A stretch of DNA of 64,000 nucleotides from Pseudomonadales bacterium (GTDB lineage: Bacteria; Pseudomonadota; Gammaproteobacteria; Pseudomonadales; Azotimanducaceae), in assembly GCA_028281885.1 (NCBI GenBank), contig JANQJA010000011.1, forward strand, positions 129,200 through 193,199. Direction: 5' to 3'. A program made the translations under genes and the position numbers. The notes beneath the pieces are model-generated. The model saw only the letters and a list, made by a program, of their open reading frames with translations, was not told the origin of the DNA and did no database searches. Within the stretch, counting starts at the first letter, position 1; each line of letters begins with the position of its first letter. Of the stretch, positions 21,723-23,882 are shown piece by piece.

Positions 21723-23882
21723 TTAATTGATCCGCCAGGCTCTTGCGGTAACGGTAGAGACCACCTCCTCGAATCCCGCGGGAGGATTGCCCAGCAAAAA
21801 CGCCTGAACAACCAGAGAATCGAGTAGTCTCGTATCGACCAGCAGTGTATCGCCGCGATCAACCCGGACAATGTAGGTCAGGTTGCCGCCTGGCCGTATA
21901 CGCCAGCGATAAGTGCGGTTGACCCTGCCCTGCGCATCCGACTCGGCAAAGATGACCTGGGAAACGTTTGCATTGGACACTGCTACCGTGCCTTTGGCCG
22001 GGTTGTCGTTGAACTGTTGGCGAAGAATCCGGCCTTCTGTTGAGGTTCCCTTGAAATAGGTGATCACCGGTGGCCTGGATGTTTCGCCTGTTCGGGGATC
22101 TACCGAACAGAAACGGTAAATCTGTCCCAGTTCGTCGAGCATCTCGTCGTTGAGAAAGAGATAGGTGTCATTCGCTGGATGACTGTCGGGAATTACCTGA
22201 CCGCCAATCAGCGCGTTGATCATCGCGTCATCCTGCCAGCGATAGCCCTGTTGCTCCACGTTCAGCGACAGCCTGCGAAGCAGGTTTCCTGCATCCTGCG
22301 CATCGCCGCAGATTAATGCATGGCTGACGGCGAAGAGCAGTTGTTGGTTGACCATCAGGCCGCCATCGATCACAACGTTGGCATTGCTGTAATAGCGCAG
22401 TGGATAGCCATAATCCCACCAGGTGATGGCCAGATCGCGGGCGCCGGCGACGTCAGCCAGTGCGGCGGCAGCCTCTGCCGTGGGGCTCAAAATGATCGGT
22501 GCCTGCAGCGAACTCCGTGCAGCTGAGACCTGGAGAACGACAACTGCACCGCAGGCGACTAGAGCCGTAGTGCGAATAAACTTCGGAACGAACGCGTTGG
22601 CCAGACAAAAGACCAGATAAGCCAGCCCCAGTGCCAGCCAGGGCACGGCGAAAATGCCGAAGCGGATGCCAAAGGGGAAAGCCAGCAATCCCAGGCCGAT
22701 CATTGGCAAGGCGATGGATAGTTCACGGCGTCTCACCATCATCAGAGCCATACCGATGACGGCGAAGACAAATATGAAGGGCGTGGCGCCCGACAGCATG
22801 CCCATGGTGTCACCGAAATCGGTCACGGACATTTCCGCGACCATCGATTGAACCTCAAGAAAAGAAAAGTTGCCCTGCGAAGCTGGCGTCTGCAGGAAAT
22901 AGAAACGGAATTTGTCGATGATGAATTCGGCGCTGGCGATCGCGATGGCCCCACAGGCAAGGACCCCGATGCCGGCGATCATCCTGGGGTTATTGAATGC
23001 AGTGGGCACTCGATCGACCAGCGGCCACAGCGCGTAGATTGCTATCGGCGCAATAAAACCAGCGATCGGCTGCAACTGGGTAACCAGTGCACCCGCCATC
23101 ATGGCCGGTATTGCGATCGCGCTGTGCTTGCCGCTCAGAAAAATGGCAATGACCCCCGCGATTGGCGTCATGGCGGCGAATACAATCCACATGGATGGAT
23201 ACCACCAGCTGCCAATGCTGATCATCAGGCTGCCAACAAGTCCGATGAGCCGCGAGCCTGTCTGCAGCGCGATGATGGTCCCGCAGGCTGCCGCTGTGGC
23301 CAGGGTGACGTTAAGCATATCGGTATCGAGGGCGCCCGGAATAGTACGGCCAAGATAGACTTCCGCTGTGGCTGCCAGGATTGCGGCGGCGAAACCCAGC
23401 CAGACAGAACCCAGTGCCGAGCCAAGCAGGACGATGGGTATGACGAGCAGGGAGCCAAGCAGGGGAGGTGCGAAAACAAAAATGTCTCCCAGTTCCAGGG
23501 GCAAAGCCAGGGCTGCGACGGCGGTCAGCTGGCTGACCGGGAATGCTGTACGCGATCTTGGATCCTGGCGGTCTTCGAGAATGTCCCGGGTGCCATCAGC
23601 CCAGGCGTAGCCGTCGTGGGTCGTGAGAATGTAACTGTCATCGAAGCGTGTATAGGGAGCATTGCCGTAGTCGATGAACCAGGTGCAACGTGCGCCGAAC
23701 GCCACGATAAAGGCAACGAAAACCAGCAACAGGATCGTCGGACGCGTCGGTTTTTCCAGTGTTATTTGCAGGCGTTCCAGTCGGGCCGGGCTTGAGCGTT
23801 TTTGGTTTCTTGCCAACTCAGGAACTCGTTTCTGTGATGGATTTTGGGGCGGATTGCATTGCGCGCGATATGCGCCGACCAA
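21723..23882 (-). CDS. pglB: PglB/STT3-type oligosaccharyltransferase (N-linked protein glycosylation)
   Basis: Polytopic N-terminal domain with [12 protein letters not shown] (23583-23618), DTDML (23313-23327) and FLEVQ. Then [21 protein letters not shown] (WWDYG = 22407-22421) and a soluble C-terminal domain. No in-frame ATG exists near the start. Candidates are TTG 23882 or TTG 23816, the latter lying 1 nt after the acyltransferase stop. Confidence 0.85.
   Translation of the reverse strand: [719 protein letters not shown]

What the first reader, a model, noticed from the sequence alone, without database searches (positions are those of the whole stretch)
21723..23882. PglB/STT3-type N-oligosaccharyltransferase in an unexpected genomic background
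This 719-aa polytopic protein carries the hallmarks of bacterial N-OSTs in the correct order. [12 protein letters not shown] lies in the first external loop (nt 23583-23618); I recall Campylobacter PglB as NDGYAFAEGARD, which contains the catalytic Asp. DTDML (23313-23327) matches the PglB DTDML metal-site motif. An FLEVQ glutamate segment sits where the EL5 TIxE motif would be. [21 protein letters not shown] (WWDYG = 22407-22421) matches PglB [21 protein letters not shown]. A ~210-aa soluble C-terminal domain follows. Characterised PglB enzymes come from Campylobacterota and Desulfovibrio. Here the neighbours are an xps-ordered T2SS, an Fcl very close to E. coli Fcl, and KorAB, which suggests a different, probably gammaproteobacterial, lineage.
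Basis: partly seen in the sequence, partly recalled or inferred. Interest (0 to 1): 0.85.

Follow-up and report, generated by a model that had tools for sequence, protein, structure and literature searches.

The report
PglB-type N-oligosaccharyltransferase in a gammaproteobacterium
This gene encodes a genuine PglB-type enzyme, the kind that attaches pre-built sugar chains to asparagines of secreted proteins, in a Marinobacter-related marine-type gammaproteobacterium where such enzymes have not been described; its catalytic residues are intact but the residues that read the protein target site differ from all characterised relatives.

Summary
The ORF on the minus strand, 21723-23882, is a GT66 STT3/PglB enzyme; its likely true start is the TTG at 23816, giving 697 aa. 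It passes both Pfam STT3 models, aligns full-length to C. lari PglB (E 1e-47), and an AlphaFold model superposes on PglB structures at TM 0.83-0.85. ArnT, PMT and Emb score TM 0.37 or less.

All catalytic, metal and lipid-donor residues are conserved: D90, R179, D186, D188, Y328, E350, R407, WWDYGY 488-493. One correction: the TIxE glutamate is in MVAE (E350), not FLEVQ.

The host is gammaproteobacterial. A complete "Pseudomonadales bacterium" chromosome carries the only close relative (50% identity) in the same gene order. The neighbouring GspE is 75% identical to Marinobacter. GC3 matches the host, so this is not a recent transfer or a binning artefact.

The lineage is isolated: the next relative among 1.84 billion representatives is about 30% identical.

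Four substrate-reading positions deviate together: R331→M, I572→E, K484→L, H485→M. This predicts an acceptor site that is not D/E-X-N-X-S/T.

I rate it a new member of a known kind, with moderate interest.

The parts
21723..23816 (-). PglB-type oligosaccharyltransferase gene: 697 aa from the TTG at 23816. The maximal ORF reaches 23882 (719 aa). Residue numbers in this report use the 719-aa ORF; subtract 22 for the 697-aa protein.
23583..23618 (-). EL1 motif [12 protein letters not shown]. D90 is equivalent to C. lari D56 (catalytic/metal and acceptor-amide ligand).
   Evidence: D in 146/147 family representatives
23313..23348 (-). R179 (C. lari R147) and DTDML with D186/D188 (C. lari D154/D156, the DxD metal site).
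22899..22901 (-). Y328 in RFYFL, aligned to C. lari Y293 (N-terminal half of EL5). Invariant between the two lineage members.
   Evidence: alignment
22833..22844 (-). MVAE, the equivalent of the EL5 TIxE motif. E350 corresponds to C. lari E319.
22797..22799 (-). M362 at the position of C. lari R331, the Arg that salt-bridges the -2 Asp/Glu of the bacterial sequon. It is also Met in the 50% relative.
   Evidence: role from PMC7226087, PMC4894442, PMC12229607
22662..22664 (-). R407, equivalent to C. lari R375 (pyrophosphate of the lipid-linked donor).
   Evidence: PMC7226087
22404..22421 (-). WWDYGY. W488-W489-D490 bind the +2 Ser/Thr hydroxyl. Y493 is equivalent to C. lari Y468, which contacts the C2 N-acetyl of the reducing-end sugar.
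   Evidence: PMC7226087, PMC3527161
22353..22367 (-). DGGLM, where C. lari has D481-G-G-K484-H485. The Lys is replaced by Leu and the His by Met (Ile in the relative). This is the loop above the acceptor nitrogen and the donor sugar.
   Evidence: PMC3527161
22119..22142 (-). MLDELGQI, the equivalent of the MxxIxxxV ('MI/MIV') motif. M581 and I588 are kept, but the central Ile (C. lari I572, which contacts the +2 Thr) is Glu584.
   Evidence: PMC3527161, PMC7226087
23818..24960 (-). Acyltransferase-3 family membrane protein. Its stop codon lies 1 nt before the PglB start. It is absent from the relative's locus.
21044..21712 (-). SAM-dependent methyltransferase (222 aa from the GTG at 21712), starting 10 nt after the PglB stop. 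It is conserved next to PglB in the relative (58% identity).
19009..21039 (+). Fusion of a sulfotransferase-like N-terminal domain and a GT4 glycosyltransferase. Syntenic in the relative (46% identity).
17952..18992 (-). GT2 glycosyltransferase. Syntenic in the relative (63% identity).
25272..26723 (+). 483-aa secreted protein with a signal peptide and no family assignment, between the T2SS and the PglB operon. It is a weak candidate acceptor, with 11 N-X-S/T sequons and 5 of them conserved in the relative.
27118..37250 (-). Type II secretion system in gspE-F-G...K-L-M-N-D order, which anchors the host assignment.
44867..45940 (-). WecA/MraY-family polyprenyl-phosphate HexNAc-1-phosphate transferase. 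It is a possible initiator of an Und-PP-linked glycan with a reducing-end N-acetyl sugar. It lies in a lower-GC polysaccharide cluster.

Best explanation
The gene encodes a functional single-subunit PglB-type (GT66) oligosaccharyltransferase. It is chromosomally inherited in a small lineage of Marinobacter-related Gammaproteobacteria (order Pseudomonadales).

Inferred mechanism, by homology with C. lari PglB: a glycan is assembled on undecaprenyl pyrophosphate and flipped to the periplasm. It binds between the membrane domain and the periplasmic domain. R407 holds the pyrophosphate. Y493 reads the C2 N-acetyl group of the reducing-end sugar. D90, D186, D188 and E350 hold the divalent metal and activate the acceptor Asn amide. 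WWD (488-490) binds the +2 Ser/Thr hydroxyl. The glycan is then transferred en bloc to Asn of secreted or periplasmic proteins.

The enzyme departs from characterised PglBs in substrate reading. The Arg that demands an acidic -2 residue is Met. The hydrophobic Ile facing the +2 Thr methyl is Glu. The Lys-His of the donor/acceptor loop is Leu-Met. I therefore predict that its sequon is not the canonical D/E-X-N-X-S/T: there is no -2 acidic requirement and the +2 pocket is altered. Its preferred glycan probably differs too. The gene sits in a tight operon with an acyltransferase and a methyltransferase, next to a sulfotransferase-GT4 fusion and a GT2, so the glycan is likely decorated by methylation, acylation and/or sulfation.

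Shown here: family, fold, residue conservation and substitutions, host lineage, synteny. Inferred: activity, Asn as acceptor, sequon, glycan, protein targets.
For: Family and fold: Pfam STT3 and the PglB core model hit above cut-off. C. lari PglB gives E 1.3e-47 over the full length. The AF2 model has pLDDT 84.2 and pTM 0.85. Foldseek gives TM 0.83-0.85 to 5OGL/6GXC/3RCE, against 0.5-0.6 for STT3/AglB and 0.37 or less for other GT-C enzymes.

Catalytic set: D90, R179, D186, D188, E350, R407, W488, W489, D490, G492 and Y493 carry the consensus residue seen in 122-147 of 147 family representatives. All are invariant between the window protein and its 50% relative, which argues for purifying selection on activity.

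Deviant specificity positions: the signature at C. lari R331/K484/H485/I572 is RKHI in 60 of 147 representatives. It is MLME in the window and MLIE in the relative, and neither combination is seen in any other sequence. M, L and E are invariant across the pair. The roles of these residues come from PMC7226087, PMC4894442, PMC12229607 and PMC3527161.

Host and inheritance: the relative sits on a 4.73-Mb 'Pseudomonadales bacterium' chromosome with the same gene order over more than 20 kb. Flanking proteins are 46-81% identical. GspE is 83% identical to that genome and 74-75% to Marinobacter. PglB has GC 57.6% and GC3 66%, equal to its neighbours. There is no plasmid homologue.

Operon structure: the gaps are 1 nt and 10 nt.

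Donor plausibility: a WecA-like initiator, many GTs and sugar-modifying enzymes lie in the same window.
Against: There is no functional data of any kind. The organisms are known only from metagenome assemblies.

In C. jejuni PglB, cassette mutagenesis of the I572-equivalent tolerated only similar hydrophobic residues (PMC3527161). A Glu there could mean weak or different peptide binding rather than a new sequon.

NCBIfam's PglB equivalog model scores 210.6 bits against a cut-off of 1300. The Pfam C-terminal beta-barrel model PF18527 does not hit.

No pglK-type flippase or bacillosamine pathway was identified near the gene. No acceptor protein is established: sequon enrichment in the neighbouring secreted protein and in T2SS components is marginal.

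Model coordinates could not be accessed, so active-site distances were not measured.
Confidence: 0.75

Rival explanations
1. It is an ordinary PglB with canonical D/E-X-N-X-S/T specificity. The four substitutions are neutral drift, compensated elsewhere in the pocket.
For: The catalytic core and WWDYG are canonical. Ollis et al. found that the presence or absence of the R331-equivalent does not fully predict the -2 rule (PMC4894442).
Against: All four deviant residues occupy positions that are strongly conserved across the family: R in 109, K/R in 103, H in 102 and I in 109 of 147 representatives. Three of the four are identical in two proteins only 50% identical overall. Desulfovibrio PglBs lacking the Arg do not glycosylate, or only poorly glycosylate, D/E-Q-N-A-T.
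Confidence: 0.15
2. Its main role is not protein glycosylation. It hydrolyses the lipid-linked oligosaccharide to release free periplasmic oligosaccharides, or transfers the glycan to a non-protein acceptor. The weakened peptide-binding pocket would favour water or another nucleophile.
For: I572→E and R331→M remove two known peptide contacts. H485, which lies 4.6 A from the acceptor nitrogen, is replaced. From my own knowledge, not tested here: Campylobacter PglB also releases free oligosaccharides using the same active site.
Against: WWD, the motif that binds the +2 Ser/Thr of a peptide, is perfectly conserved in both members, as is E350, which contacts the acceptor amide. No evidence points to an alternative acceptor.
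Confidence: 0.12
3. The gene is not truly gammaproteobacterial. It is a recent horizontal acquisition from Campylobacterota, or a binning or assembly artefact.
For: Nearly all named relatives in the genome scan are Campylobacterota. MAG bins do sometimes carry misplaced PglB contigs; for example, one homologue is labelled Zoogloeaceae on a 20-kb contig.
Against: The gene is embedded in a 64-kb window, a 298-kb contig and a complete 4.73-Mb chromosome. Synteny is conserved between two genomes whose flanks are 46-81% identical. GC and GC3 equal the host background, while Campylobacterota loci are 30-39% GC. Identity to any Campylobacterota protein is 31% or less. In NJ bootstraps the pair groups with high-GC metagenomic sequences rather than Campylobacterota (84%).
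Confidence: 0.02
4. It belongs to another GT-C family (ArnT, PMT, O-antigen ligase) and merely mimics PglB motifs.
For: None found.
Against: No such Pfam or NCBIfam family hits at E<=1. Foldseek gives TM 0.37 for ArnT and 0.23-0.28 for PMT and Emb, against 0.85 for PglB.
Confidence: 0.01

Closest known systems
Campylobacter lari / C. jejuni PglB (PDB 3RCE, 5OGL, 6GXC; GT66 bacterial single-subunit OST)
   Same: It has the same full-length architecture and fold (TM 0.83-0.85). It shares the same catalytic, metal, pyrophosphate and N-acetyl-reading residues and the WWDYG motif. It is likewise a single polypeptide of about 700 aa.
   Different: Identity is only 21-27%. R331→M, I572→E, K484→L and H485→M. 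The C-terminal beta-barrel is not recognised by PF18527. It falls far below the NCBIfam equivalog cut-off. The host is a gammaproteobacterium. No pgl-type locus is present; the gene is instead in an operon with an acyltransferase and a methyltransferase beside a T2SS.
Desulfovibrio PglB homologues with relaxed sequons (D. vulgaris, D. desulfuricans, D. gigas, D. marinus; PMC4894442, PMC12229607)
   Same: These are bacterial PglB-family enzymes outside Campylobacterota. Some also lack the R331-equivalent (Y381 in DvPglB, S358 in DdPglB) and do not need an acidic -2 residue. They are the best functional analogy for the predicted relaxed specificity.
   Different: They belong to a different phylum (Desulfobacterota). 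The window protein is not close to them in sequence searches; the nearest representatives are all 31% identical or less. I found no report of a Glu at the I572 position in them, and among 147 representatives Glu occurs only in this pair.
Uncharacterised high-GC metagenomic PglB-like proteins P0096/P0122 (loci L087, L088)
   Same: They are the sister group of the pair in bootstrapped NJ (84%). They also lack the R331 Arg (Ala/Ser), have Asn for H485 and a polar residue (Gln) at the I572 position. They are also flanked by GT2/GT4 genes, and L087 has a methyltransferase-containing gene.
   Different: Identity to the pair is only about 30%. The contigs are 69-75% GC. The genes are translationally coupled to a Wzm/Wzt-type ABC transporter pair, which is absent next to the window gene. 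The organisms are unknown.
Eukaryotic STT3 and archaeal AglB
   Same: They share the same superfamily and catalytic logic (D, DxD/E, E, WWDYG). As here, STT3 has no Arg at the R331 position and needs no -2 acidic residue (PMC7226087).
   Different: They are much more distant (TM 0.5-0.6; phmmer E 5e-4 for STT3A and no hit for AglB). They carry a DK motif (Lys at the I572 position) rather than M-x-x-E.

Membership tests
STT3/PglB/AglB superfamily (GT66) | Significant match to the STT3 membrane-domain profile (PF02516) and the STT3/PglB/AglB core periplasmic domain (PF21436) | tested here: met
   70.6 bits (cut-off 24.5) and 58.3 bits (cut-off 23). The 50% relative matches both as well.
STT3/PglB/AglB superfamily (GT66) | WWDYG motif in the periplasmic domain | tested here: met
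   W488-W489-D490-Y491-G492 at 22407-22421.
STT3/PglB/AglB superfamily (GT66) | Acidic catalytic/metal residues: EL1 Asp, the DxD motif and the EL5 Glu | tested here: met
   D90, D186/D188 and E350 align to C. lari D56, D154/D156 and E319.
STT3/PglB/AglB superfamily (GT66) | Overall fold: polytopic GT-C membrane domain plus mixed alpha/beta periplasmic domain | tested here: met
   The AF2 model (pLDDT 84.2) versus 5OGL gives TM 0.85 over 743 aligned columns.
Bacterial PglB (single-subunit N-OST) | Closest solved or characterised relatives are PglB rather than STT3 or AglB | tested here: met
   phmmer gives E 1e-47 for PglB, 5e-4 for STT3A and no hit for AglB. Foldseek gives TM 0.85 versus 0.6 or less.
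Bacterial PglB (single-subunit N-OST) | LLO-binding residues R375 (pyrophosphate) and Y468 (C2 N-acetyl), and EL5 Tyr293 | tested here: met
   R407, Y493 and Y328.
Bacterial PglB (single-subunit N-OST) | Arg equivalent to C. lari R331, which imposes the -2 Asp/Glu of the bacterial sequon | tested here: not met
   Met362 in the window and Met in the relative; Arg in 109 of 147 representatives.
Bacterial PglB (single-subunit N-OST) | MxxI(xxxV) 'MI/MIV' motif facing the +2 Thr | tested here: not met
   The motif is M581-L-D-E584-L-G-Q-I588. Met and the distal Ile are kept but the central Ile is Glu, which is unique to the pair among 147 representatives.
Bacterial PglB (single-subunit N-OST) | DGGK-H loop (C. 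lari D481-H485) | tested here: not met
   The loop is DGGLM in the window and DGGLI in the relative. K/R occurs in 103 and H/N/Q in 134 of 147 representatives.
Bacterial PglB (single-subunit N-OST) | C-terminal beta-barrel domain (PF18527 STT3_PglB_C) | tested here: inconclusive
   There is no PF18527 hit at E<=1. However, the model has six beta-strands at residues 618-696 (697-aa numbering), and the full-length superposition on PglB holds.
NCBIfam NF050801 ProtGlycPglB (equivalog of Campylobacter PglB) | Score at or above the curated equivalog cut-off | tested here: not met
   210.6 bits against a cut-off of 1300. The protein is a homologue, not an equivalog.
Bacterial PglB (single-subunit N-OST) | Demonstrated transfer of an Und-PP-linked glycan to Asn of a protein | not testable with these tools
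   This requires expression and glycoprotein analysis.
Other GT-C families (ArnT, PMT, O-antigen ligase/Wzy_C, Emb) | Profile or fold match better than to PglB | tested here: not met
   There are no Pfam or NCBIfam hits. Foldseek gives TM 0.37 for ArnT and 0.23-0.28 for PMT and Emb.

The most novel reading that the evidence does not exclude
The pair may represent a previously unrecognised gammaproteobacterial N-glycosylation system whose oligosaccharyltransferase uses a new acceptor-recognition logic: no -2 acidic rule, and an acidic Glu in place of the Ile/Lys that faces the +2 residue. It may belong, together with high-GC relatives that carry Gln at that position, to a distinct 'polar +2 pocket' subfamily of bacterial OSTs. 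It would decorate T2SS-associated, secreted or pilin-like proteins with a methylated, acylated or sulfated glycan. The gene's conserved position beside a T2SS and a sequon-rich secreted protein, and the pilin-like genes beside relative P0122, would then be functional links rather than coincidence.
Probability: 0.25. Interest if true: 0.75.

Novelty: new member of a known kind. Interest (0 to 1): 0.55.

Why it matters
In the papers I read here, OST-dependent N-glycosylation in bacteria is described for Campylobacterota and Desulfobacterota. A vertically inherited PglB in a Marinobacter-related gammaproteobacterium widens the known host range.

Naturally divergent PglBs are actively bioprospected as tools for making glycoproteins and conjugate vaccines in E. 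coli. The acidic -2 requirement and donor-sugar restrictions of C. jejuni PglB are the main limitations there (PMC4894442, PMC12229607). This enzyme keeps the whole catalytic apparatus but changes exactly the positions known to set acceptor and donor preference. It comes from a gammaproteobacterial host with E. coli-like codon and GC properties.

It is therefore a concrete, cheap candidate for a relaxed or novel sequon specificity. It is also a natural experiment on what the MxxI/DK position does.

Tried and rejected
(1) Other GT-C families were rejected on profile and fold evidence.

(2) Recent horizontal transfer or mis-binning was rejected on synteny, GC3, contig sizes and the absence of any plasmid homologue.

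(3) Acceptor hunting was inconclusive. The neighbouring 483-aa secreted protein has 11 N-X-S/T sequons against 6.6 expected (shuffle p about 0.05). Its orthologue has 7 against 4.8 (not significant), with 5 conserved. In the part alignable to the Marinobacter homologue, two conserved sequons of the PglB-positive genomes correspond to S-G-S and N-P-S in Marinobacter, which is anecdotal. T2SS components I to D have 18 sequons against 10.8 expected in the window, 12 against 9.2 in the relative and 10 against 9.7 in Marinobacter. I do not count this as evidence.

(4) Literature searches linking PglB to Gammaproteobacteria or Marinobacter found nothing relevant.

(5) Naming the nearest relatives was only partly successful. 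P0096 and P0122 are unnamed metagenome contigs; P0069 is from a Myxococcota MAG.

(6) The unknown polytopic proteins at 38348-40213 and 54361-55860 gave no Pfam, NCBIfam or PDB hit.

(7) Active-site geometry could not be measured because the model coordinates are not exposed to scripts.

(8) No maximum-likelihood tree could be built because no ML program is installed. The phylogeny is bootstrapped neighbour-joining only, and long-branch attraction cannot be excluded.
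Full report
OBSERVATION. The minus-strand ORF 21723..23882 (719 aa) is present exactly as described. The 23882 start is only the first possible start codon and lies inside the upstream gene. Public gene calls use the TTG at 23816, giving 697 aa (P0001, 100% identical). 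That start sits 1 nt after the stop of the upstream acyltransferase gene and matches the N-terminus of the only close relative. Residue numbers below use the 719-aa ORF; subtract 22 for the 697-aa protein.

WHAT IT IS. Pfam places the protein in STT3 (PF02516, E 2.4e-19) and in the STT3/PglB/AglB core domain (PF21436, E 1.5e-15). No other family appears at E<=1. Against all PDB sequences the best matches are C. lari PglB 3RCE/5OGL/6GXC at E about 1e-47, aligned from residue 52 to 716. Human STT3A reaches only 5e-4 and AglB does not appear. An AlphaFold2 model built on a 39-sequence alignment has mean pLDDT 84.2 and pTM 0.85. Its only longer low-confidence stretch is the region corresponding to external loop 5, which is flexible in PglB. 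Foldseek against the PDB returns 5OGL, 6GXC and 3RCE at TM 0.83-0.85 over the full length. Eukaryotic STT3 and archaeal AglB score TM 0.5-0.6, DPY19 scores 0.51, ArnT scores 0.37, and PMT and Emb score below 0.3.

CATALYTIC RESIDUES. I aligned the protein with C. jejuni PglB (translated from locus L029) and with 147 family representatives. D90, R179, D186, D188, E350 and R407 correspond to C. jejuni D54, R145, D152, D154, E316 and R372, which are C. lari D56, R147, D154, D156, E319 and R375. The set W488-W489-D490-Y491-G492-Y493 is also aligned, as is Y328, which corresponds to C. lari Y293. All of these carry the family consensus residue. All are invariant between the window protein and its 50% relative. 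The roles of these residues (metal and acceptor-amide ligands, pyrophosphate contact, N-acetyl contact, +2 Ser/Thr binding) are taken from PMC7226087, PMC6025236 and PMC3527161.

WHAT IS DIFFERENT. Four positions that read the substrates in C. lari PglB are replaced, in ungapped and well-anchored alignment blocks.
- R331 forms the salt bridge to the -2 Asp/Glu and is described as 'strongly conserved in bacterial ssOSTs' (PMC12229607). Here it is M362.
- I572 is the centre of the MxxI/'MIV' motif and touches the +2 Thr methyl. Only similar hydrophobic residues were tolerated in C. jejuni cassette mutagenesis (PMC3527161). Here it is E584.
- K484 and H485 lie in the DGGK-H loop. H485 is 4.6 A from the acceptor nitrogen, and Gln is nearly the only natural alternative. 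Here they are L509 and M510.

Across 147 representatives these columns read R in 109, K/R in 103, H in 102 (N 17, Q 15) and I in 109. The four-residue signature is RKHI in 60 sequences. MLME and MLIE occur only in the window protein and its relative. M, L and E are identical in two proteins that share only 50% identity, which suggests selection rather than decay. In addition, the Pfam model of the C-terminal beta-barrel (PF18527) hits the Campylobacterota homologues but not this pair, although the model retains a strand-rich C-terminus. The NCBIfam PglB equivalog model scores 210.6 bits against a cut-off of 1300.

HOW ISOLATED IT IS. In the 5.8-billion-cluster protein collection, the word-indexed search found the identical sequence (one cluster, on a 298-kb NCBI contig), one relative at 50% identity (P0002), and then nothing above 27%. 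An exhaustive phmmer scan of 1.84 billion 50%-identity representatives found 1007 family members. After the query's own cluster, the best score is 228 bits at about 30% identity. On trimmed columns the window protein is at most 30% identical to any other representative, whereas a typical representative has a neighbour at 46%. In neighbour-joining bootstraps (54 taxa, 100 replicates) the pair is monophyletic in 100% of replicates. In 84% it is sister to two metagenomic sequences, P0096 and P0122. Those two lie on 69-75% GC contigs immediately downstream of a Wzm/Wzt-type ABC transporter pair and among GT2/GT4 genes. P0122 is followed by large pilin-like (N_methyl, PilX_N) proteins. These relatives also lack the Arg (Ala/Ser), have Asn for His485 and have Gln at the I572 position. 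The four sequences may therefore form a subfamily with a polar '+2 pocket'. Long-branch attraction cannot be excluded, and no ML program was available. One member of the loosely associated clade is annotated in a Myxococcota MAG.

HOST AND INHERITANCE. The genome-representative scan found 375 relatives. The best, at 50%, is on OZ254080.1, titled 'MAG: Pseudomonadales bacterium ... chromosome: 1' (4.73 Mb). The other 79 listed are 23-29% identical, and almost all are Campylobacterota. The gene order around P0002 matches the window: T2SS, 479/483-aa secreted protein, PglB, methyltransferase, sulfotransferase-GT4 fusion, GT2, 761/765-aa unknown, radical SAM, Memo-AMMECR1, GNAT, aldehyde dehydrogenase. 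Protein identities across this stretch are 46-81%, with PglB at 49.5%. The window's GspE is 83% identical to the protein in that chromosome and 74-75% identical to Marinobacter nauticus and Marinobacter sp.. NCBI taxonomy places Marinobacter in Gammaproteobacteria, Pseudomonadales. Marinobacter nauticus VT8 has the same T2SS. Next to it are homologues of the methyltransferase (36%) and of the secreted protein (30%), but no PglB within the 10 kb available. PglB has GC 57.6% and GC3 66%, like its neighbours (GC3 63-75%), while Campylobacterota pglB loci are 30-39% GC. No plasmid in PLSDB encodes a homologue. The gene was therefore present in the common ancestor of these two genomes and is chromosomal. 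It is not a recent import or a binning artefact. Where it originally came from is unresolved.

CONTEXT AND LIKELY PATHWAY. The acyltransferase-3 gene (23818-24960), pglB and the methyltransferase (21044-21712) are separated by 1 and 10 nt, so they probably form one operon. The acyltransferase is absent from the relative. A sulfotransferase-like/GT4 fusion (19009-21039) and a GT2 (17952-18992) are adjacent and syntenic. Beyond the T2SS, the window carries a GtrB/PpgS-like polyprenyl-phosphate glycosyl synthase, fcl, several GT1/GT2 genes and a WecA-family initiating transferase (TIGR02380, 190.8 bits, below its 326 cut-off). It also carries a 1519-aa multi-domain enzyme, a dehydratase, a nucleotidyltransferase, an aminotransferase, sulfotransferases and methyltransferases. 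Much of this lies in a lower-GC (47-50%) block. The ingredients for an Und-PP-linked glycan with a reducing-end N-acetyl-hexosamine are thus present, which fits the conserved Y493. Which genes actually feed this OST is inference. No flippase was identified.

MECHANISM (committed view). I judge that it is a GT66 PglB-family protein with about 0.97 confidence. I judge that it is catalytically active on a lipid-pyrophosphate-linked glycan with about 0.8 confidence, because the complete catalytic set is conserved across 50% divergence. I judge that it N-glycosylates Asn in periplasmic or secreted proteins with about 0.7 confidence, because WWD and E350 are kept. I judge that its sequon lacks the -2 acidic requirement and has an altered +2 environment with about 0.5-0.6 confidence, by analogy with Desulfovibrio PglBs that lack the Arg (PMC4894442). 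The main rival is a shift toward LLO hydrolysis or a non-peptide acceptor because peptide contacts are lost. This cannot be excluded without experiments.

CANDIDATE TARGETS (weak). The 483-aa protein at 25272-26723 has a signal peptide and 11 N-X-S/T sequons against 6.6 expected (p about 0.05). Five of them are conserved in the orthologue, but only one has an acidic -2 residue. Two conserved sequons correspond to non-sequons (S-G-S, N-P-S) in the Marinobacter homologue. T2SS components show a slight excess in the window only. These are leads, not evidence.

COMPARISON AND NOVELTY. It works like PglB and belongs to the PglB branch of GT66. It fails three secondary, specificity-related hallmarks of characterised bacterial PglBs: R331, the Ile of MxxI, and DGGK-H. 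It also fails the NCBIfam equivalog threshold. The papers I could read describe OST-type bacterial N-glycosylation in Campylobacterota and Desulfobacterota and bioprospect only those groups. I found no paper linking PglB to Marinobacter-like gammaproteobacteria. Unannotated or auto-annotated homologues from other phyla do exist in databases, so the occurrence outside the classic phyla is not in itself unprecedented. I rate it a new member of a known kind, with an unusual and testable substrate-site signature. Interest is moderate (0.55): it is useful for OST bioprospecting and for understanding the MxxI/DK position, but it is not a new kind of system.

Noticed in passing
window 25272-26723 (+): A 483-aa acidic, Ser/Thr/Asn-rich secreted protein with a clear signal peptide and no family assignment lies between the T2SS secretin gene and the PglB operon. 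It is conserved in the Pseudomonadales MAG (61-62% identity, depending on the alignment), and a 30% homologue sits beside the T2SS of Marinobacter nauticus VT8. It is probably a T2SS-linked exoprotein and is a weak candidate N-glycoprotein.
   Followed up: partly
window 37336-40213 (-): A GtrB/PpgS-like polyprenyl-phosphate glycosyl synthase (GT2 plus a GtrA-like C-terminus) overlaps by 8 nt with a 621-aa protein that has about 10 hydrophobic segments and no Pfam, NCBIfam or PDB match. The arrangement resembles ArnC/ArnT-type pairs, so the unknown protein may be an unclassified GT-C transferase.
   Followed up: partly
window 46938-51497 (-): A 1519-aa multi-domain protein combines MptE-like, GT4-like, FkbM methyltransferase and sulfotransferase regions. 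It lies in a lower-GC polysaccharide cluster.
   Followed up: no
window ~41000-62500: GC drops from about 58% to 47-50% (GC3 from about 0.65 to about 0.5) across a block of GT, WecA-like, dehydratase, aminotransferase, YdjC, sulfotransferase and methyltransferase genes. This is typical of a horizontally exchanged surface-polysaccharide locus. The PglB operon itself has host-like composition.
   Followed up: partly
window 54361-55860 (+): A 499-aa protein with about 10 hydrophobic segments has no family or PDB match. It follows an LPG_synthase_TM-family gene. It is possibly a flippase, polymerase or GT-C of the polysaccharide cluster.
   Followed up: partly
window 13025-17947: A Memo-AMMECR1 fusion and a radical SAM protein are divergently arranged (an AmmeMemoRadiSam-type trio in two genes). 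A 765-aa soluble protein of unknown function follows and is 67% conserved in the Pseudomonadales MAG. All are syntenic with the PglB locus in both genomes.
   Followed up: no
L088 8001-17475 and L087 3436-7123: The nearest non-self relatives of this PglB (P0122, P0096), from 69-75% GC metagenome contigs, are translationally coupled to a Wzm/Wzt-type ABC transporter pair. P0122 is followed by 1111-aa and 797-aa pilin-like (N_methyl, PilX_N) proteins. This hints at a link between this OST subgroup and type IV filament or T2SS-like proteins.
   Followed up: partly
L016 (JAZDQA010000013.1): A PglB homologue (26% identity) lies on a 305-kb contig labelled only 'Pseudomonadota bacterium'. The locus is 38.8% GC, like the Campylobacterota loci, so the label probably does not indicate another non-Campylobacterota host.
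   Followed up: partly
window 23818-24960 (-): The acyltransferase-3 gene translationally coupled to pglB is present in the window genome but absent from the otherwise syntenic relative. It is therefore a recent addition or loss that may change glycan decoration between the two lineages.
   Followed up: partly
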